From an uncultured Methanoregulaceae archaeon (GTDB lineage Archaea > Halobacteriota > Methanomicrobia > Methanomicrobiales > Methanospirillaceae), in the NCBI GenBank assembly GCA_963841015.1, contig CAWJAX010000003.1, positions 842,043 to 906,042 of the forward strand: a DNA stretch of 64,000 nucleotides. The letters are read 5' to 3'. Below the pieces are notes generated by a model, which was given only the letters and a program-made list of their open reading frames with translations, was not told the origin of the DNA and made no database searches. Positions 49,666 to 64,000 of this stretch are shown in pieces. The translations under genes and the position numbers were made by a program. The number at the start of each line of letters is the position of its first letter. Position 1 is the first letter of the stretch.

Positions 49666-50977
49666 TCAATCGGTAGATTTCGATGGAACTCGGGTGACCA
49701 GCACCTTGTCGATCCTGTTTCCGTCCATATCCACGACTTCATAGCGCAGTCCGCCGACTTCCAGATGATCACCGGTTTTTGGTATCCGCTCCAGGATGAA
49801 CAGGATCAGCCCGGCAATGGTCCGGTAATGTCCCTGTTCCTCTGCCGGAAAGGAATCCACAGATAAGATTTTCTTGATATCTTCAACAGGTGTATCCCCA
49901 TTGATCAGCCATGAGCCATCCTCCCTTACGACAACAGGTATATCCACCGGTTCTCCAAGAGTCCGGACATCGCCCACGATCGCTTCAAGGATATCATGCA
50001 GGGTAATGACGCCCTGAATGCTTCCGTATTCATCAGTGACCAGAGCAATATGCACACCGGTTTCTTTGAATGATGCAAGGAGTTTCAGGATGGGTAGGCC
50101 CTGAGGGGCCAAGAGCGGTTTCGTGACAGCGGATTTGATATCGGGTGTACAGCCATCAACCATCCTCGCCAGAACATCCTTTACGGAAACCATGCCAACA
50201 AGATTATCCAGATTTCCCTTATACACCGGAAAATTTGATCGAGCGCTCCTGGTCATTTTCCACAGGTTCTCCTCATCGTCATCATTCAGGTCGAGCGCGA
50301 TGACATCAGACCGGTGTGTCATCAGGGATTCAACCCGACGATCTCCAAGATTAAACACACCTTCTACCATGCTCACTTCGGCCTTCTCGAATACCCCGGA
50401 TTCAGTGCCTTCTTCGAGCATAATTTTTATTTCCTCTTCCGTTACCGGCGGTTCCCTGGTCTCCCGTACACGCATAATCCAAAGCACGGCTTCAGTTGAG
50501 CGACTGAGAATGAATACCAGCGGGGAAGCGATAACCGACAGGAGGCGCATCGGTTTTGCGACGGAAGAGGCGATATTTTCAGCATTATTCAGCGCGAGGT
50601 GTTTCGGGACGAGTTCTCCAAAGATTAAGGTCAGATACGTGATTACGACTACAACAAGAATGATTGCCAGAATCTCGCTGTAGGGCGCAAGCAGAGGGAA
50701 TTCTTTGAGATACGTTGCGAGCTCCTCAGCTATTATCAGCTCCACCGAACGCACCGGCCAGGATCCCCACAAGGGTAATGCCGATCTGTATTGTCGAGAG
50801 GAAATGGGTGGGTTCTTGTGCAAGTTCAAGTGCAGCTGCTGCCCGTTTGTCTCCTTCCAGTGCCCGTTGCTGGAGTCGTGTTTTTTTAGCTGAAACAATG
50901 GCAAATTCTGCCATAGCAAAAATGCCATTGATGAGGATAAGGACCAGGATGATAACGATTTCAAAGAGATACGACAT
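49666..50977 (-). CDS. HlyC/CorC (CNNM, DUF21-CBS-CorC) family transporter; +1 frameshift near 50737
   Basis: NGIFAMAEFAIVS, FLSTIQIGIT, GELVPK, CBS pair, DEYG...G..T..DILE.IVG, CorC domain. Confidence 0.92.
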
Positions 50978-56579: not shown

Positions 56580-57305
56580 TTATCGGAAAATATCCGGTTT
56601 TACAATCCGGTATTCCACCAGTCCCCCGGCATCGAATACTTTGATTTCAACCGGTCTGCCCTGCCGGTACCGCTGCATACGATCATAATACACTTCCGGA
56701 GCATGCCGGAGGTCATGCACGGTAAAATATTCGTGAATGGTTTCAAGGAATGATATCTGCTGGGTGAGGAATGCATTCTCATATTCCTTGACTTCCTGAG
56801 CAAGCGTGAGACACTCCCCGAAAAGGATTGTAGGATCATATCTCCCATGACTGCCCTTGCGGGCAAATTGTCGCCAGGCAACATGGCCAGGTGCACCAGC
56901 GCTTCGACGGAGCATATGTGGGTAGATACGACATCCGGAAAATCTCTGATCATAGATCCTGCATTTCCCGTCTTCAAAAAACCAGCAGGATCCGTTCGTA
57001 TCATCTTTCATCCGGAGTGCATACCCCGAAACATACAACATTCCGTTCTGGTCGCAGAACTCCGGGTCCGGAGCAGGCTCATACGCATCAGGATCGATCC
57101 TTCTCACCTCGGTCACATCGTGGTCCAGAAGAAAGATATGGTTGTTGATCACCCTTGTGCAGCACTCCCCGCAACAAGTACACCGGAACCTGGCTGACCA
57201 GATATCACTTGCCATCTGTTCAAGAGGATATGCAAAAAGACGGTTTCTTTCGTGTATTAGTGCGATAATACGGTAGGGAATCTGGATATCAGAAGCAGCG
57301 ACCAT
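56580..57305 (-). CDS. YkgJ family cysteine-cluster protein
   Basis: FRCTCCGECC, C.F.....C.IY..R...CRIYP. Confidence 0.88.
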   Translation of the reverse strand: MVAASDIQIPYRIIALIHERNRLFAYPLEQMASDIWSARFRCTCCGECCTRVINNHIFLLDHDVTEVRRIDPDAYEPAPDPEFCDQNGMLYVSGYALRMKDDTNGSCWFFEDGKCRIYDQRFSGCRIYPHMLRRSAGAPGHVAWRQFARKGSHGRYDPTILFGECLTLAQEVKEYENAFLTQQISFLETIHEYFTVHDLRHAPEVYYDRMQRYRQGRPVEIKVFDAGGLVEYRIVKPDIFR

Positions 57306-58150
57306 CAGGATACACCCCTTTCAAACTCGATACTGGTAATGGTAAACTCTCTATTTGCGTATTCGCCGTCAGGAAGGATCAGTTCCGATGAAATTTGCCG
57401 GGGTATTTTATATCCCTGCACATCTGTATAGTCAGAGAAATTGTGCATAAAATGGCCTGGGTAAGGCCTGCCGGTCTCCGAATGATCCCTGTGACATGCC
57501 TCGATGCTCCGGATTAGTCCTGTACCATCGAAATGGACAAGAGCTTCAGCGCGGAGATCGTTGTCCCTGATGAATGCCCGTGCCGTTGAATCACTCACGT
57601 TCTTCCATTCCAGCGATATACCCGGAACAAGGGCCATAGGGAAGAGGGGTGCACTGGCCAGATACCGGAAGAGTGAGGATGTTTTTATCTTTTCACCATA
57701 TGCATTGTCAAGAGGGTAGACCGAGAACAGGTTGAGATGCATTCCCGCTTCGCGATGCACGTAATAGTCGAACGCTTCGATCCATACACCGGGTAAATAG
57801 GCAATTTTTGCATACCACACAAAACCCGGTGTTGCAAGAGAGAAAACAGCCTCTCCCCGCATTTTCATCCATCGTCCTTTTTTCCCGTATCTGAACCTTC
57901 CCGCATGCTGGATATGTACGCACCCGACAGGATCGGTATTCTTACCTATCGTCCATGACAAATAGCGTGATACCGGTTCTGGATCAGATGGAATACACAT
58001 AGTCGCGGGTAAAGGTGCATAATCAATTATCAGGTGAAGAAAGAGGGACTGGTGCTCGACCATGGTGGCGAAAAGATCGCTCCCGATTATTATGATGAGC
58101 AGAAAAATCGCGGCCCACACAAGAAAACCGAACGTGAGCTCAACAAGCAT
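57305..58150 (-). CDS. DUF6544-like membrane-anchored protein
   Basis: N-terminal TM segment; P.PV.RYL, PGF.W.A, D.Y....G.M, RYL......P; family recalled, not verified. Confidence 0.65.
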   Translation of the reverse strand: MLVELTFGFLVWAAIFLLIIIIGSDLFATMVEHQSLFLHLIIDYAPLPATMCIPSDPEPVSRYLSWTIGKNTDPVGCVHIQHAGRFRYGKKGRWMKMRGEAVFSLATPGFVWYAKIAYLPGVWIEAFDYYVHREAGMHLNLFSVYPLDNAYGEKIKTSSLFRYLASAPLFPMALVPGISLEWKNVSDSTARAFIRDNDLRAEALVHFDGTGLIRSIEACHRDHSETGRPYPGHFMHNFSDYTDVQGYKIPRQISSELILPDGEYANREFTITSIEFERGVS

Positions 58151-59199
58151 CAGCTGTTCCCACTACTCCGCATCCAGATATCCACTTGCCGGAATGGAAT
58201 TTCAATTCCTTCATTACGGAAGTACTCATCGATACGGGAATTGACATAATCCTGGACATCCCATGAATTGTCAAAGTTGTTTGTCCAGAGAATAAGCTGT
58301 CCGTTCTTGCTGGATTCCCCGAATTCAAGAAAATACACTGATGGAGATGGATCTAATACCACCCACGGAGTCTTCTCTGCTGCCTCATGGGCTATTTCAA
58401 GGAGAATGCGTTTTACCCGGGCAATATCGGTTCCGTACGCTACAGAAAACGGAATCCTCACTTTCATTTTGAAATCCGGTTGGGCATAATTTACAACAAT
58501 ATTTGATGTGATTTTTGAATTTGGAATGGTAACGATTTGACTGTCCAGTGTTTTCAACCGCGTACTCCTAGGGCCGACACTGACGATATCGCCGAAATAA
58601 TTATCGAACTTGATCCGGTCACCGATCTTGAACGGTTTGTCCATGGTAATAATTGCTCCTCCGAGAAAATTCCCGAGGATATCCTGGGCGGCTAGAGCAA
58701 TAGCAAGTCCTGCAATCCCGGCAGCCGCGAGGAGCGGGGTAATATCTATATTAAAATTTTTTAAAAGGAGAAGAAAAGCAACAAACCATATCAGGTACTT
58801 GGAGGCAATCTCGAGCATCGGTAGCAGCCGGTCATGGAATTCCGGATCCGTTTTTGCTGCTATGATTGTTCCGTAGGTCACCAAAAGGGTATAGGAAAAT
58901 GACGATACAATCCACGCTCCGATCAGAATAAAAAATGCATTCACCCACTGATCAATATTAACGGGATATCCTGCGATAGTTTCGGGCAGAATCCCAAAAT
59001 AGGTCAACGCTATGTATATCGATACGGCAATAATCGTGATTACCAGCGGTTTTCCAACTGACGACAGCAGGATGTCATCAAGTTGTGACTCGGTTTCGGA
59101 TGCCTTCTTTTTCAACCAACGGATAATGATATAAGTAATTCCCGCTGCGAAGAAGCCGAAAATAATTGTGAGGATGGCATAGAATATTCCAGGATCCAT
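58150..59199 (-). CDS. mscS: Small-conductance mechanosensitive channel
   Basis: GIAGLAIALAAQD...N..GG, DKPFKIGD, R.T......V.IPNS, IEIPF.Q. Confidence 0.95.
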   Translation of the reverse strand: MDPGIFYAILTIIFGFFAAGITYIIIRWLKKKASETESQLDDILLSSVGKPLVITIIAVSIYIALTYFGILPETIAGYPVNIDQWVNAFFILIGAWIVSSFSYTLLVTYGTIIAAKTDPEFHDRLLPMLEIASKYLIWFVAFLLLLKNFNIDITPLLAAAGIAGLAIALAAQDILGNFLGGAIITMDKPFKIGDRIKFDNYFGDIVSVGPRSTRLKTLDSQIVTIPNSKITSNIVVNYAQPDFKMKVRIPFSVAYGTDIARVKRILLEIAHEAAEKTPWVVLDPSPSVYFLEFGESSKNGQLILWTNNFDNSWDVQDYVNSRIDEYFRNEGIEIPFRQVDIWMRSSGNS

Positions 59200-59247: not shown

Positions 59248-60102
59248 TCAATCAACCCCAGATAATTTCTTATACCAGACATTCATGCTCTCCAGCGACC
59301 CGCAGATGTTGGTATTGTTGGGGAGCAGTCCCCCGTACTGGTATCCCGCACCGGCAAATACGATATTGACCGGGCGTGAAATGGCCCGTGCGATGGTATA
59401 TGTTAGCAGGATCCCCTCTTTTTTCAAATCGGTTTCCATCGAATGGAGGAGTATTCCGGCAAAGCCCATTCCCCGAAAGGATGGATTAGTGGCAAAATCA
59501 GACACCTCAGCATTCAGGTTCTCACCATCAATCTCACAGGATGCCACGGCCGCCAGCTGGTAGGATTTTCTGATGATAAAATACCGGACCTGCCCCTGCA
59601 TGGATTTGCGGATATATTCTGGATCAAAAATGGGAAACGGATAGGTCTTGAAAACCGAATGGTACAGTGCTGCAATCTCCTTTGAGTCTCCTGCATGGGC
59701 ATGCTTCAGAGAAAATCCCTCCAACAGCTCATACGAGGATCTCTCTCCTGCATACCCGAATGCTGCTGACAATACGTCCGCAATTATGGATGCATGGGGG
59801 ACCTCTTTCCTGCCAGGATCAGTATATTTCGCCATGAATACCGCAGAATCTTTACCACGGAAGAGGTATGGGACAGTAGCTTCCGTGACATACCCGGCAT
59901 TGGCAAAAATTTCCACGGAAGATTCCGGTACCTTGACAAAGATTTTGGTATAACCCTCCTTATGGGTGAGATCATCTGCGTATCGGATGATGTCAGGAAT
60001 ATCTCCCGGGGCTAGTCTCATGACATAGACCCGGTTGTTGATCCGGCCGTGCTGGACGACGCTGTTCCCACGGTGCAGGACTTCATCACACTGCATCGTC
60101 AT
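59248..60102 (-). CDS. ablB: beta-lysine N6-acetyltransferase
   Basis: QHG..N.R.Y, YTKIF.K, F.TYPFP, AE..DFAT....RG, TIARA, NNTNI.G..ESMNVWYK; AAGGAGG RBS. Confidence 0.93.
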   Translation of the reverse strand: MTMQCDEVLHRGNSVVQHGRINNRVYVMRLAPGDIPDIIRYADDLTHKEGYTKIFVKVPESSVEIFANAGYVTEATVPYLFRGKDSAVFMAKYTDPGRKEVPHASIIADVLSAAFGYAGERSSYELLEGFSLKHAHAGDSKEIAALYHSVFKTYPFPIFDPEYIRKSMQGQVRYFIIRKSYQLAAVASCEIDGENLNAEVSDFATNPSFRGMGFAGILLHSMETDLKKEGILLTYTIARAISRPVNIVFAGAGYQYGGLLPNNTNICGSLESMNVWYKKLSGVD

Positions 60103-61545
60103 TCCTCCTTTCAATCCGGTCGGTATTTGCCGGGATAAGGGTCGTAGTCTCATCGTAATCAGCAAGCAGTTTTGCTACACCAACGACTTTTGACTCATCA
60201 GCCCGGTCGATATTCAGCTGCAGCTTGCACACGTCACAATCGCCATTGCAGAAGATGCGGTCATAGTTCGCGGGTTCCTGGTATGTGCATATCATTCCTT
60301 CGTAATTGCGCAGCACGACTTTATGCACCGACCATGTCAGCAGGTAGTTGGGGAATATGGGGATCTTTCCCCGCCCCCCGGTGCATCGAGCACGTAGCGC
60401 GGGACGGCAAATCCACTGGTGTGGCCAACGAGGTTCTCCATGATCTCAATTCCTTTGGAGACCGGGGTACGGAAATGGCTGATACCTTCTGACAGGTCGC
60501 ACTGATACAGGTAATACGGGCGGATACGATTTTTTACGAGCTGGTGGACGAGCGCTTTCATAATACGGGGGCAGTCATTGATCCCGGCAAGGAGTACGGA
60601 CTGATTGCCAAGAGGGATGCCGGCGTCGGCGAGTTTTGCCACCGCGACCTGGGCGGATTCGGTCATCTCCTTGGGGTGGTTGAACTGCATGTTCACCCAG
60701 AGCGGATGGTGTTTTTTCAGCATGGCGACAAGTTCATCAGTGACCCTGAACGGCAGAGTAACTGGCACACGGGTCCCAATCCGTATTACTTCTACATGAG
60801 GGATGGCGCGGAGCTCAGTGAGGATCCAGTCAAGATAATCATCGCTGAGCATGAACGGGTCGCCCCCGGAAAGGAGTACGTCGCGAATTTGTGGCGTGTT
60901 CCGGATATAATCAATGCCCGCGAGGATCTCTTCCCGATCAGGAATCGAATCAACATCGCCGACTTTGCGTTTCCGCGTACAGTGCCGGCAGTACATCGCA
61001 CAGGTATTGCTGACAAGGAACAGCACCCGGTCAGGATACCTATGCGTGATACAGGAACAGGGGCTGTCTTTATCCTCTGCCAGTGGATCGGAGAGCTCAT
61101 AATGTTCGATGATCAGCTCCTGCGGTGACGGGAATGCCTGTTTGAAAATCGGATCATTCTGGTAATCATTCACATCAATTAGGGAGAGGTAATAAGGGGT
61201 GATGTTGAGAGGAAATTTATCGATCGTTTTCTGGAGCTGTTCCCGCTCCTCCCTATTGAAACGGATGCCAAGGACCTGTTCAACGGTGGCAAGATCCCGA
61301 ATTGCATGCCGGATCTGCCACCGCCAGTCCTTCCAGAACTCGGGAGTCTTTTCAGTATCAATGGTTTTCCTGATGATCGAAAGATCACCGGGTTTTTCTC
61401 CCCCCTCGTACAATCCTTTCAAGACAGATATTATGTCCTTAGCCCTGTTTTTTACCTGACTCCCAAGATCCTTTACGGAATTCAGGGTACCGGCAGATAC
61501 CCCGCTATCCTTTGGCTTTTTCAGGTCACTGGATTTACCGGTCAT
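60086..61545 (-). CDS. ablA: Lysine 2,3-aminomutase; -1 frameshift in the G-run near 60370
   Basis: [42 protein letters not shown](G)KIP, C-terminal C...C..C; directly upstream of ablB. Confidence 0.95.
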
Positions 61546-61559
61546 GATAACCTGACCCT

Positions 61560-62707
61560 TCAGAACAACCAGTGCATCTTCGGCATTTTCACGGGCAGGA
61601 TATCGCTGATTTGGGTAGCATGGTGCCGGTAATCGTCAAACCACCGGGCTACAGGGTTGCTCTTAAAGACCATAAACTTCCCTATGTTTGCCGTATCAGC
61701 TGACTGGTGATACCGCATGAAGACATGTTCAGCAGTCTTTCCTACAACCTCAATCTTGCCCGTAGCATGCGACATGACAAACCGGGCCCGTTTCGCAAGA
61801 CCGGAACAGGCCTGCCAGGATTTCTGGATAATCTCGTACGACTGTTCAACAGGTACCTGGAAGATAAGGTTACCCAGTGAAGGCCGGCACTGGAAGACAT
61901 AATAGGGGGAGATCCCCGCAAATGAGAGTTTCCGGAAGAGACTGGTGAATATTTCCGGCTCACTGTTAATACCATTGAGGATGGGAGTCTGGCTGACTAC
62001 CATGACACCCGCTTTCTGCAGTTCGTGAGCCGCCCGGATTGACACGTCCGTCAGTTCCTTTGGGTGGTTGAAATGTGCCATCAGGTAAACACGCTTTTCC
62101 GGTGTGCTGTACCGCGACAGGACATAGAGGAGATTCGGATCGTTGAGAATCCGGTAGGGGTTATAGGCAAGCATCTTGCTGCCGATACGGATAATGTTGA
62201 CATGCTCGATCTCCCGCGGACTGTCGCAGGACAGATTCAAGGTGCCGTGTTTCGAGCATGAGGGGATCACCCCCGGTTAATAAGACGTTTGTTATCTCTT
62301 TGTGATCACGGATATACTCGATATTTTCAGAAATATCCTTTACGGTCTCACGCTCACAGGACATGAACAACCGTTTCCGGAAACAGAAGCGGCAGATACC
62401 CCCACAGAGATCGGTAAGGAGCAGGAGGCCGGTCTGATTATATTTATGCTGAAGACCGGGTTTTTTGGTATAATCTTTTTCACACGAAGGATCCGTTGAT
62501 CCCCCGGTTTTGAGTTCATGAGAATCAGGAATAACAATCCTGCGCAGCGGATCGTGATCGTCTTTCCAATCGATAAGCGAGAGATAATACTCATTGGAAC
62601 GGAACGGGAACTTGTCCGTTACCATCTCCATCTTCTCTATCGCTTTCGGGGCGAGCCCGACAAAGTTGTCGAGATCGGAAATTGATGTTATGTACCTTAG
62701 GATTCAT
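61560..62707 (-). CDS. Second KamA-family radical SAM aminomutase-like protein; frameshifts near 62695 and 62220
   Basis: [62 protein letters not shown]. Confidence 0.9.
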
Positions 62708-62716
62708 TTCTTCACC

Positions 62717-62977
62717 TCAGTTAATGCTACATGGGATGTATCGTTCATGGACACACAATTTATTTCGATAGGTCAACCCTCTTTTCCTTAAAGCACCGAG
62801 TGCCCATTCCGCATCCTCGCTTCCTGCACGCTCAAGTGCCCCAAGAAATGTTAACGCTTCATGGCGAATTGCTCCATCTCGTGACGTTATTGCAAGTGAA
62901 TAGAGTTCATGTACTCGCTGATCTTTCCATTCCCTCATCTGTTCACTCACAATTTCCTCACTTCCGAAATAAAACAA
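62717..62977 (-). CDS. Short hypothetical helical protein
   Basis: Open frame ending 9 nt before the kamA-like start; HEAT-like IRHEAL..LG.L. Confidence 0.45.
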   Translation of the reverse strand: MFYFGSEEIVSEQMREWKDQRVHELYSLAITSRDGAIRHEALTFLGALERAGSEDAEWALGALRKRGLTYRNKLCVHERYIPCSIN

Positions 62978-63144: not shown

Positions 63145-63501
63145 ATGACATATAAACGGGAACTGACCTCTCCTATTTCTGTTCGTCTCCCACGAGAGAC
63201 GAAAACCAAACTGGAACAGATAGTCGAAGAAAAACACATGGAACTCTCACCCTTTATTGTGGCTATTGTTGAGGATTGGTTAAAAATGAGGAAGGAAATT
63301 GGAGAGAGTGCAATGAACTGGCATACGTATATCAATAATTCTGAGTATAAACAGGCAATGCAGGAGCTCATTAGAGATACATTTCTCGACTCAGTCATCA
63401 ATACCCCAAATTACCGGGATAATATCAAAGATGTGGTCAAAAGAGTTCTCTCCGAGGCTTCAGATGGAGGAGGGCTGTCTCAAACCAGCGAAAAAAAGTA
63501 A
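63145..63501 (+). CDS. Putative ribbon-helix-helix (CopG-like) DNA-binding protein
   Basis: PISVRLPRETKTKLEQIVEEKHMELSPFIVAIVEDWL matches the RHH pattern; GGAGA RBS. Confidence 0.7.
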   Translation: MTYKRELTSPISVRLPRETKTKLEQIVEEKHMELSPFIVAIVEDWLKMRKEIGESAMNWHTYINNSEYKQAMQELIRDTFLDSVINTPNYRDNIKDVVKRVLSEASDGGGLSQTSEKK

Positions 63502-63663: not shown

Positions 63664-63751
63664 GAGATACGTGTGAATGACGCGGAATGAGAATGTTTAT
63701 CTCACCGTCTCCATTGCCTCACGTTCCCTGGGTGCGAGCCCGACAAGGTTG
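63664..63751 (-). pseudogene. Decayed fragment of the 5' end of a kamA-like gene
   Basis: NLVGLAPREREAMETVR*TFSFR versus [23 protein letters not shown] at 62581-62668; shared GCGAGCCCGACAA. Confidence 0.75.
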
Positions 63752-64000
63752 AAATGGTACTCAGGTATTTCCGATTCATCGTACACATCAACTTATACGT
63801 TGTGCTCTGCCCGTCAGAGGGCAGGGTTTGAGTTATGCGGAAAAACTCTGATCCTAAACAAACGAAATTGATCGTATTGATTGCACTACTCAATGAAACG
63901 TACCAGGGAATTTATCTTTTAAACCCCTTGTGTTATTTTGACTTTCCATGGCAGAAAAGAGAAACAGGGTCAGAATATTGCCTTGACTGAAAAACTCCTG

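What the first reader, a model, noticed from the sequence alone, without database searches (positions are those of the whole stretch)
61560..62707. Second KamA paralog upstream of ablAB with charge-reversed substrate site: candidate beta-glutamate-forming aminomutase
Seen: the gene ends 14 nt before the ablA ORF start. It keeps the radical SAM CxxxCxxC, the following Arg and a plausible PLP Lys (TGK). AblA's YYLYQCD becomes YYVFQCR, DAPGGGGK becomes MSHATGK, and the C-terminal Cys triad is absent. Established: in Clostridium subterminale lysine 2,3-aminomutase, Asp293 and Asp330 bind the lysine side chain, and glutamate 2,3-aminomutase has Lys and Asn at those sites. beta-Glutamate and beta-glutamine are known methanogen osmolytes; to my knowledge the archaeal gene is unassigned. 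Inference: Asp-to-Arg suits an acidic substrate, so this operon may make two beta-amino-acid osmolytes.
Basis: partly seen in the sequence, partly recalled or inferred. Interest (0 to 1): 0.78.

Follow-up and report, generated by a model that had tools for sequence, protein, structure and literature searches.

The report
Uncharacterised aminomutase beside methanogen osmolyte genes
Next to its genes for the salt-protective solute acetyl-beta-lysine, this freshwater methanogen carries a second, related enzyme from a widespread and untested family whose active site looks built for an acidic amino acid, most likely to make beta-glutamate.

Summary
On the minus strand at 62707..61560 lies a divergent KamA-family radical SAM/PLP aminomutase, 14 nt upstream of ablA-ablB-mscS. 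The CxxxCxxC motif, the following Arg and the PLP Lys are kept. LAM Asp293 is Arg, and the C-terminal Zn/LAM_C part is absent.

The two frameshifts, and a third in ablA, are almost certainly assembly indels. Near-identical DNA from other metagenomes lacks them at every site covered. In this assembly 18 of 121 compared genes show such breaks.

Relatives carry an intact 374-381 aa gene. It occurs in 137 of 200 good Methanomicrobiales genomes and in many bacterial phyla, including Thermotoga. It reaches no NCBIfam equivalog cut-off. On a tree it lies outside the clade that holds lysine-type and clostridial glutamate-type enzymes. Arg274, Asn279, Ser312 and His313 are invariant in 353 of 353 members.

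In Methanomicrobiales it sits among ablAB, MscS, Kup and Na+/H+ exchanger genes. My best reading is a glutamate 2,3-aminomutase that makes beta-glutamate (about 0.5); the substrate is inferred only.

A Methanococcus enzyme was published in 2022. From my recollection of its abstract it has an N-terminal extension and seems to be a different subfamily; I could not obtain its sequence.

The parts
61560..62707 (-). Divergent KamA-family radical SAM/PLP aminomutase (about 381 aa when read through). Signature: HKY, CxxxCxxC-x-[16 protein letters not shown]. The assembly breaks it with two +1 insertions at about 62695 and about 62217-62220.
60086..61545 (-). ablA, lysine 2,3-aminomutase (TIGR03820 635.8 bits, cut-off 525.4). 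One base is missing in a G run at about 60368-60370, which splits off the LAM_C / Cys-rich tail.
59248..60165 (-). ablB, beta-lysine N-acetyltransferase (TIGR03827 314.7 bits, cut-off 205.1).
58150..59199 (-). MscS-type mechanosensitive channel, last gene of the same-strand cluster.
63690..63870 (-). Remnant of a second copy of the gene's first 30 or so codons together with an upstream region like that of genome G008. It lies about 1 kb upstream of the present start. A side observation, not part of the working gene.

Best explanation
The gene encodes a working enzyme (intact in nature) of a distinct and widespread KamA subfamily of radical SAM, PLP-dependent amino acid 2,3-aminomutases. It is the first gene of a same-strand cluster: paralog, ablA, ablB, mscS.

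Most likely it converts L-glutamate to beta-glutamate, an anionic compatible solute that balances K+.

Proposed mechanism, by analogy with lysine 2,3-aminomutase:
1. The CxxxCxxC [4Fe-4S] cluster cleaves SAM to a 5'-deoxyadenosyl radical.
2. That radical takes the 3-H of the glutamate-PLP aldimine. PLP is held by Lys317 in the resting enzyme.
3. The amino group migrates from C2 to C3 through an aziridinyl-type radical.
4. The hydrogen is returned.

Arg110 would hold the alpha-carboxylate. Arg274 (where LAM has Asp293) together with Ser312-His313 (where LAM has Asp330-Ala331) would hold the gamma-carboxylate.

Shown: family membership, fold, invariant signature, gene intactness in nature and osmotic gene neighbourhood.
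Inferred: the substrate, the product and the physiological role.
For: Family and fold.
- The intact orthologue P0001 passes the KamA subfamily model (TIGR00238 204.9 bits, cut-off 199.2) and no equivalog model.
- The AlphaFold model has pLDDT 92.1. Its only strong PDB match is LAM 2A5H (E 6e-31, TMq 0.78).

Active site.
- HMMER aligns LAM Asp293 to Arg274 and LAM Arg134 to Arg110.
- A profile alignment puts the AblA Asp of 'IDAPGGGGK' on Ser312 and the PLP Lys on Lys317.
- Arg274, Asn279, Ser312 and His313 are invariant in 353 of 353 family proteins and in 46 of 46 diverse members.
- Clostridial-type Eam-like representatives also carry a basic residue (Lys) at this position (P0233, P0252, P0258). 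On the tree they lie in the Asp-type clade, not with this family. The same charge logic therefore arose twice.

Context. In the loci, among Methanomicrobiales:
- AblB in 11 loci and AblA in 12;
- MscS in 8, the Kup K+ transporter in 7, a P-type cation ATPase in 6, Na+/H+ exchanger-TrkA in 4.
In bacteria:
- a trehalose-phosphate synthase/phosphatase (L099);
- an amino-acid permease with a TrkA_C domain (L055);
- glutamate formimidoyltransferase in 5 syntenic loci.

Inventory.
- In 101 genomes of the order only two KamA score classes exist: 54 AblA-type matches and 86 matches of this family.
- Thermotoga petrophila holds a member (P0426). The Thermotoga maritima control genome shows a fitting score fingerprint and no LAM_C.

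Background.
- Methanogens accumulate beta-glutamate (passages of Roberts 2005, PMC1224877).
- That Methanogenium cariaci and Thermotoga spp. accumulate it is recalled, not seen in any call.
Against: - No result tests the substrate.
- The second site is Ser-His, not the Asn of the characterised clostridial enzyme.
- No glutamate-specific partner is conserved across phyla. The FtcD link is 5 syntenic loci of related uncultured bacteria without a hut operon. The GluRS link is 3 related ANME-2 loci.
- The family is common in freshwater and soil lineages (Methanoregula, Acidobacteriota), where beta-glutamate has not been reported to my knowledge.
- Relatives of the wider HKY group are fused to an ATP-grasp ligase, an NRPS condensation domain or a Lys/Orn N-monooxygenase. 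The group therefore serves other beta-amino-acid chemistry too.
- The published methanococcal enzyme seems to be another subfamily, so function cannot be transferred by orthology.
Confidence: 0.5

Rival explanations
1. It performs the same 2,3-aminomutase chemistry on a different substrate. Candidates are L-glutamine, 2-aminoadipate or another polar or acidic amino acid. The beta-amino acid produced would have an unknown role, either as a solute or as a building block.
For: - The signature differs from both characterised glutamate and lysine enzymes: Ser-His at the second site, and HKY instead of HRY or RRY.
- The family scores about equally on the lysine, glutamate and arginine models: 226, 221 and 208 bits.
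- Wider relatives are fused to an ATP-grasp ligase, an NRPS condensation domain or an N-monooxygenase, and one member sits in an NRPS locus (L077).
- The family is widespread in non-saline lineages.
Against: - An invariant Arg at the side-chain site (353 of 353) fits an anionic side chain best.
- Aspartate would give back aspartate.
- The osmotic gene neighbourhoods fit a known methanogen solute, and beta-glutamate is the one known solute without an assigned gene in this order.
Confidence: 0.3
2. It is an orthologue of the already published archaeal glutamate 2,3-aminomutase of Methanococcus maripaludis C7. The function would then be known and only the annotation would lag.
For: - A 2022 paper reports such an enzyme in methanogens (citations seen).
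- The Methanocaldococcus jannaschii control genome has a KamA-family gene without a LAM_C domain, as this family does.
- Divergent signature-bearing relatives score as low on the AblA model as that gene does (P0129 and P0134).
Against: - As I recall the abstract (not seen here), the Methanococcus protein has an N-terminal extension of about 160 residues. This family has 374-381 residues and no extension.
- The M. jannaschii gene scores E <= 1e-75 on TIGR00238 but above 1e-55 on TIGR03820.
- By contrast, 9 of 9 core members tested score between 1e-59 and 1e-76 on TIGR03820 and no better than 4e-71 on TIGR00238.
- NCBI names the family only 'KamA family radical SAM protein'.
Confidence: 0.1
3. 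The frameshifts are real, and in this strain the gene (with ablA) is a decaying pseudogene.
For: - The assembly reads three 1-nt indels within 2.4 kb.
- The laid contigs are from 95-99% alike populations, not proven to be the same strain.
- A remnant 5' copy upstream shows past rearrangement.
Against: - All other populations lack the indels: 4 of 4, 4 of 4 and 2 of 2 runs.
- There is no stop and no decay within the three frame segments, which are 85% identical to an intact orthologue.
- The ablA break is in a G homopolymer.
- 18 of 121 genes across the assembly show the same kind of break.
Confidence: 0.1
4. It is a second lysine 2,3-aminomutase, redundant with AblA or feeding it.
For: - It lies directly upstream of ablA here and in 9 related loci.
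- JGI labels many members 'lysine 2,3-aminomutase'.
Against: - Both lysine-binding Asp residues are replaced, by Arg274 and Ser312.
- TIGR03820 gives 226 bits against a cut-off of 525.
- 28 of 101 genomes hold it without any AblA.
Confidence: 0.04

Closest known systems
Lysine 2,3-aminomutase (KamA/AblA; Clostridium subterminale LAM, PDB 2A5H)
   Same: Radical SAM CxxxCxxC motif, the Arg after the motif, a PLP Lys in a Gly-Lys loop, and the same fold. 34% identity over 358 aligned columns.
   Different: Asp293 is Arg and Asp330-Ala331 is Ser-His. HRY is HKY. There is no LAM_C or Zn-Cys tail. The protein is about 40-60 residues shorter. It lies outside the 100%-supported Asp-type clade.
Clostridial glutamate 2,3-aminomutase (Eam; NCBIfam TIGR04368)
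   Same: A basic residue replaces the first lysine-binding Asp, so the logic of an acidic substrate is shared (the Lys332/Asn369 identities are recalled from Ruzicka and Frey 2007, which is not held).
   Different: 221.5 bits against a cut-off of 650. Arg rather than Lys, and Ser-His rather than Asn. No N-terminal region and no LAM_C. Eam-like representatives nest inside the Asp-type clade, and this family does not.
Methanococcus maripaludis C7 glutamate 2,3-aminomutase (Tunckanat et al. 2022, Biochemistry 61:1077)
   Same: An archaeal KamA-family enzyme tied to beta-glutamate and salt tolerance (title seen).
   Different: I recall an N-terminal extension of about 160 residues, which is absent here. 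The sequence could not be obtained, so no alignment was made. The KamA gene of the M. jannaschii control genome has a different model-score fingerprint.
EpmB (YjeK) and arginine 2,3-aminomutase (BlsG)
   Same: The same superfamily and core motifs.
   Different: 171.0 bits against 369.3 for EpmB, and 208.5 against 600 for BlsG. Archaea lack EF-P. A basic residue at the side-chain site does not suit arginine.

Membership tests
KamA family (radical SAM / PLP 2,3-aminomutases, TIGR00238) | CxxxCxxC cluster motif followed by a conserved Arg | tested here: met
   [12 protein letters not shown] in the window. Cys101, Cys105, Cys108 and Arg110 are invariant in 46 of 46 members.
KamA family (radical SAM / PLP 2,3-aminomutases, TIGR00238) | PLP-binding Lys equivalent to LAM Lys337 | tested here: met
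   Lys317 aligns with the Lys of the AblA-type GGGGK loops. It is Lys in 352 of 353 family proteins.
KamA family (radical SAM / PLP 2,3-aminomutases, TIGR00238) | Score over the curated cut-off (199.2 bits) | tested here: met
   The intact orthologue P0001 scores 204.9 bits. The window's two pieces alone score 98.2 and 80.9.
KamA family (radical SAM / PLP 2,3-aminomutases, TIGR00238) | LAM-like fold | tested here: met
   Model pLDDT 92.1. Match to 2A5H at E 5.8e-31, TMq 0.78.
Lysine 2,3-aminomutase AblA (TIGR03820) | Equivalog score of at least 525.4 bits | tested here: not met
   226.2 bits.
Lysine 2,3-aminomutase AblA (TIGR03820) | Asp293 and Asp330, which bind the lysine epsilon-amino group (their role is recalled from the 2A5H literature) | tested here: not met
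   Arg274 and Ser312 stand at these positions.
Lysine 2,3-aminomutase AblA (TIGR03820) | C-terminal LAM_C domain with Zn-binding Cys residues | tested here: not met
   No PF12544 hit. No Cys in the tail.
Clostridial glutamate 2,3-aminomutase (TIGR04368) | Equivalog score of at least 650 bits | tested here: not met
   221.5 bits. Other family members score 199-253 bits.
Clostridial glutamate 2,3-aminomutase (TIGR04368) | Lys and Asn at the two side-chain sites (identities recalled) | tested here: not met
   This family has Arg and Ser-His instead. Eam-like representatives show RRY / H[AP]K, and P0233 reads IINAPGGYGK.
Methanococcal glutamate 2,3-aminomutase (Tunckanat 2022) | N-terminal extension of about 160 residues (recalled from the abstract) | tested here: not met
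   Orthologues are 374-381 aa and their N terminus aligns with the start of the LAM core.
Methanococcal glutamate 2,3-aminomutase (Tunckanat 2022) | Sequence orthology to MmarC7_1783 | not testable with these tools
   The paper is not held.
EpmB (TIGR03821) | Equivalog score of at least 369.3 bits | tested here: not met
   171.0 bits.

The most novel reading that the evidence does not exclude
This is a third, independently evolved lineage of glutamate 2,3-aminomutase, marked by HKY / Arg274 / Ser312-His313. It would be the missing source of beta-glutamate in Methanomicrobiales and Thermotogales and in hundreds of bacterial and archaeal species across more than ten phyla. Beta-glutamate would then be a far more common K+ counter-ion solute than the few NMR surveys suggest, even in freshwater methanogens.
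Probability: 0.42. Interest if true: 0.7.

Novelty: new variant of a known kind. Interest (0 to 1): 0.55.

Why it matters
Beta-glutamate has been known as a methanogen solute since about 1990. To my recollection its gene was assigned only in 2022, and only for Methanococcus. That assignment seems to involve a different subfamily.

In Methanomicrobiales the only KamA-family genes are AblA and this one, so this family is the obvious candidate there.

The family is large and conserved. There are at least 595 loci in species-representative genomes, and members share 50-60% identity between archaea and bacteria. NCBI names it only 'KamA family radical SAM protein'.

A single enzyme assay would annotate thousands of genes. 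It would also show whether a basic residue at the Asp293 site is a general predictor of acidic substrates, and it would add a radical SAM route to beta-amino acids of biotechnological interest.

Tried and rejected
- Reading Tunckanat 2022, Ruzicka and Frey 2007, Pflueger 2003, Robertson 1990 and Martins 1996: none is held. Citing papers gave only reference entries. Full-text searches for MmarC7_1783 and MJ0634 found 0 papers.
- A gamble that representative P0134 was methanococcal: it is an orphan from a metagenome contig with no close named relative.
- ESM Atlas: only generic KamA clusters; the top one is mostly Thermotogota.
- No Methanococcales genome could be reached with the genome search. 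I used the named control genomes as a crude score fingerprint instead. This is indirect, and the tool warns that long models can miss weak matches.
- FtcD neighbourhood as a glutamate link: it is real in 5 loci, but these are syntenic relatives. The surroundings are pyrB/pyrC and tol-pal genes, not a histidine-utilisation operon. I keep it only as a weak hint.
- A conserved operon partner across phyla: none found.
- The tandem 568-aa protein P0168, considered as a possible methanococcal type: it is a bona fide AblA (561.9 bits) with an internal partial duplication and is not relevant.
- Literature on beta-glutamate in Thermotoga, Aquifex or Methanogenium: nothing usable in the held library.

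Full report
WHAT IS THERE. All the genes concerned are on the minus strand.
- ablB lies at 60165..59248 (TIGR03827 314.7 bits, cut-off 205.1).
- ablA lies at 61545..60086 (TIGR03820 635.8 bits, cut-off 525.4).
- An MscS-type channel lies at 59199..58150.
- The paralog starts at an ATG at 62707 and stops at 61562-61560, 14 nt before the ablA ATG.

- [12 protein letters not shown];
- LLTGGDP;
- [12 protein letters not shown], where AblA has YYLYQCD;
- FVMSHATGK, where AblA-type proteins have DAPGGGGK;
- a Cys-free tail.

THE FRAMESHIFTS. The reading frame changes twice, after MNPK (about 62695) and between LESVLRQ and REIEHV (about 62217-62220). Against the orthologues of genomes G008, G001 and G022 both changes are one-base insertions. 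ablA lacks one base in a G run, which turns GGGGK into GGGERS. Read through with X at the two breaks, the paralog gives 380 residues without a stop, and 323 of 381 are identical to the G008 orthologue.

Three results say these are assembly errors.
1. Contigs of four public runs from four studies, 95-99% alike, carry the opposite 1-nt indel at each site. This holds at the ablA site in 4 of 4 runs, at 62217-62220 in 4 of 4, and at 62695 in the 2 of 2 that cover it.
2. Of 121 G008 genes with a good orthologue in this genome, 18 show a frame change here, about one per 6 kb. One of them is an unrelated gene at window position about 50735.
3. The assembly has only five contigs, which is typical of long reads.

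I cannot exclude that the particular strain carries the indels, since the laid contigs are from other populations. I put that at about 0.1.

WHAT FAMILY IT IS. The two pieces hit all six KamA-family models of NCBIfam at E 1e-16 to 1e-29. The intact G008 orthologue (P0001, 381 aa) scores as follows:

| Model | Family | Bits | Cut-off |
|---|---|---|---|
| TIGR03820 | AblA | 226.2 | 525.4 |
| TIGR04368 | clostridial Eam | 221.5 | 650 |
| TIGR04468 | arginine 2,3-aminomutase | 208.5 | 600 |
| TIGR00238 | KamA subfamily | 204.9 | 199.2 |
| TIGR03822 | AblA_like_2 | 191.8 | 396 |
| TIGR03821 | EpmB | 171.0 | 369.3 |

It is therefore a KamA-family protein that belongs to none of the named equivalogs. 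Pfam sees only Radical_SAM and no LAM_C.

An AlphaFold model built on 46 family sequences has pLDDT 92.1. Its only strong match among solved structures is lysine 2,3-aminomutase 2A5H (E 5.8e-31, TMq 0.78, 34% identity). The next match is at E 2e-06.

ACTIVE-SITE SIGNATURE. HMMER aligns LAM Arg134 to Arg110 and LAM Asp293 to Arg274. A profile alignment of 150 representative proteins plus AblA puts the AblA Asp of IDAPGGGGK on Ser312 and the PLP Lys on Lys317. The same table shows a clean co-variation:
- this family reads HKY / FQCRP..GN / SH..GK;
- lysine-type proteins read HRY / YQCD / D...GGGGK;
- clostridial Eam-like representatives (P0233, P0252, P0258) read RRY / H[AP]K.

Arg274, Asn279, Ser312 and His313 are invariant in 353 of 353 family proteins returned by three searches. 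Cys273 varies (C, N or G).

On a FastTree of 122 full-length sequences, all Asp-type and Eam-like rows form one clade with 100% local support (44 rows). Every HKY/Arg/Ser-His row lies outside it. Deep branches are weak, the tree is midpoint-rooted and it has no bootstrap. A basic residue at the Asp293 site therefore arose separately in the clostridial glutamate enzyme and in this family.

DISTRIBUTION.
- P0001-type genes (E <= 1e-60) occur in 137 of 201 Methanomicrobiales genomes (137 of 200 of good quality) and in 31 of 33 genera. In the window's own genus, Methanoregula by the names, they occur in 18 of 40 genomes. Almost all frames are open.
- A KamA-family inventory of 101 genomes at least 95% complete finds only two score classes on TIGR00238. 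There are 54 matches of 328-376 bits (AblA type) and 86 of 190-238 bits (this family). Nothing lies in between except split genes. Four genomes have AblA only and 28 have this family only.
- Outside the order, a scan of species-representative genomes found at least 595 loci. They include ANME-2/Methanogaster, Methanotrichaceae, Thermoplasmata, Thorarchaeota, Nitrospinota, Nitrospirota, Calditrichota, Acidobacteriota, Desulfobacterota, Aquificaceae, Petrotogales and Planctomycetia, at 47-61% identity.
- Named cultured holders include Kosmotoga, Mesotoga prima, Thermosipho and Thermotoga petrophila RKU-1. The Thermotoga protein has HKY, QNR and SH..GK.
- Every source names the family only 'KamA family radical SAM protein' or, loosely, 'lysine 2,3-aminomutase'.

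NEIGHBOURHOOD. In 73 of the 80 fetched loci my simple ORF caller found the gene. No partner is conserved across phyla.

Within Methanomicrobiales the gene lies in what looks like an osmoadaptation island:
- an AblA gene in 12 loci, directly downstream in 9;
- AblB in 11;
- MscS in 8;
- the Kup K+ transporter in 7;
- a PAS sensor in 7;
- a P-type cation ATPase in 6;
- a Na+/H+ exchanger with TrkA domains in 4.
These loci are kin, so they are not independent counts.

In bacteria there are single cases beside a fused trehalose-phosphate synthase/phosphatase (L099) and an amino-acid permease with a TrkA_C domain (L055). There are three cases beside a cNMP-PilZ protein and one inside an NRPS locus (L077). 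Five syntenic cases lie beside glutamate formimidoyltransferase-cyclodeaminase (confirmed as FtcD), but without a histidine-utilisation operon around them.

More distant HKY-group representatives are fused to a D-Ala-D-Ala-ligase-like ATP-grasp domain, an NRPS condensation domain, a Lys/Orn N-monooxygenase or RidA.

HOW IT MOST LIKELY WORKS. What is shown is a complete radical SAM/PLP aminomutase core with a LAM fold, kept under strong constraint. From the established LAM mechanism I infer a 2,3-shift of the amino group on a PLP-bound amino acid.

The substrate is inferred from three things:
1. an invariant Arg where LAM binds the lysine ammonium group, next to an invariant Ser-His at the second site;
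2. the osmotic and K+ transport neighbourhood, which suits an anionic solute that pairs with K+;
3. the fact that methanogens accumulate beta-glutamate (Roberts 2005, passages read), while in this order no other KamA-type gene exists besides AblA.

Thermotoga holds a member of this family. The T. maritima control genome has a single fitting fingerprint: no LAM_C, TIGR03820 between 1e-55 and 1e-100, TIGR00238 weaker than 1e-75, and no Eam-level score. I put glutamate at about 0.5 and another substrate at about 0.3.

WHAT IS KNOWN.
[quoted passage not shown] 2022 (passage read; reference entries). That paper is not held.
- From memory of its abstract, the Methanococcus maripaludis C7 enzyme carries an N-terminal extension of about 160 residues. 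It was assigned from its substrate-binding residues and by expression in a methanogen.
- This family has no such extension.
- The KamA gene of the M. jannaschii control genome has a different score fingerprint from 9 of 9 core family members tested. However, divergent signature-bearing relatives such as P0129 and P0134 score as low on the AblA model. Orthology is therefore unlikely rather than excluded (about 0.1).
- Searches of the held library for the locus tags found nothing. I found no paper that characterises this subfamily. Most subscription journals are not in the library, so this is not proof.

VERDICT. It is not the first archaeal route to beta-glutamate. The frameshifts are artefacts, and the pairing with ablAB is specific to some Methanoregulaceae and Methanospirillaceae lineages.

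Noticed in passing
window 63690-63870 (-): About 1 kb upstream of the gene's present start lies a remnant of a second copy of its first 30 or so codons. It comes with an upstream region, including a GC-rich hairpin, that matches genome G008's native upstream sequence better than the present one does. The present 5' end resembles the G001/G022 type. This suggests a past insertion or allele replacement at the 5' end.
   Followed up: partly
window 62717-62977 (-) and 63145-63501 (+): The 1-kb segment between the remnant and the gene holds an 86-aa ORF that ends 10 nt before the gene's ATG, and a 118-aa ORF on the other strand. Neither has a Pfam match.
   Followed up: partly
whole assembly; for example window about 50733-50738 (G000:C3:892775-892780): 18 of 121 genes compared with genome G008 show a frame change in this assembly, about one per 6 kb. 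Any 'pseudogene' or 'split gene' seen in this window should be distrusted.
   Followed up: yes
window 57305-58150 (-): A DUF6920/DUF6544 protein (281 aa) follows the MscS gene on the same strand and shares one base with it (58150). Its function is unknown.
   Followed up: no
protein P0152 (representative): A family member that shows W where all others have conserved G (for example in the GGD and GK motifs). It looks like a gene from a lineage that reads TGA as Gly (code 25) but was translated with TGA as Trp.
   Followed up: no
protein P0168 (representative): A 568-aa AblA (TIGR03820 561.9 bits, above the cut-off) with a degenerate internal duplicate of part of the barrel inserted before its LAM_C domain.
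   Followed up: partly
proteins P0163, P0164, P0256, P0125: Distant relatives of the HKY group are fused to a D-Ala-D-Ala-ligase-like ATP-grasp domain, an NRPS condensation domain, a Lys/Orn N-monooxygenase and a RidA domain. These are likely beta-amino-acid steps of secondary metabolism.
   Followed up: partly
G072:C1:1032114-1033124 and G113:C39:7036-8103; G110:C102:9303-10273: Two relatives' copies of the family gene carry one in-frame TGA each, and one genome has a split AblA. I did not examine whether these are errors, pseudogenes or recoding.
   Followed up: no
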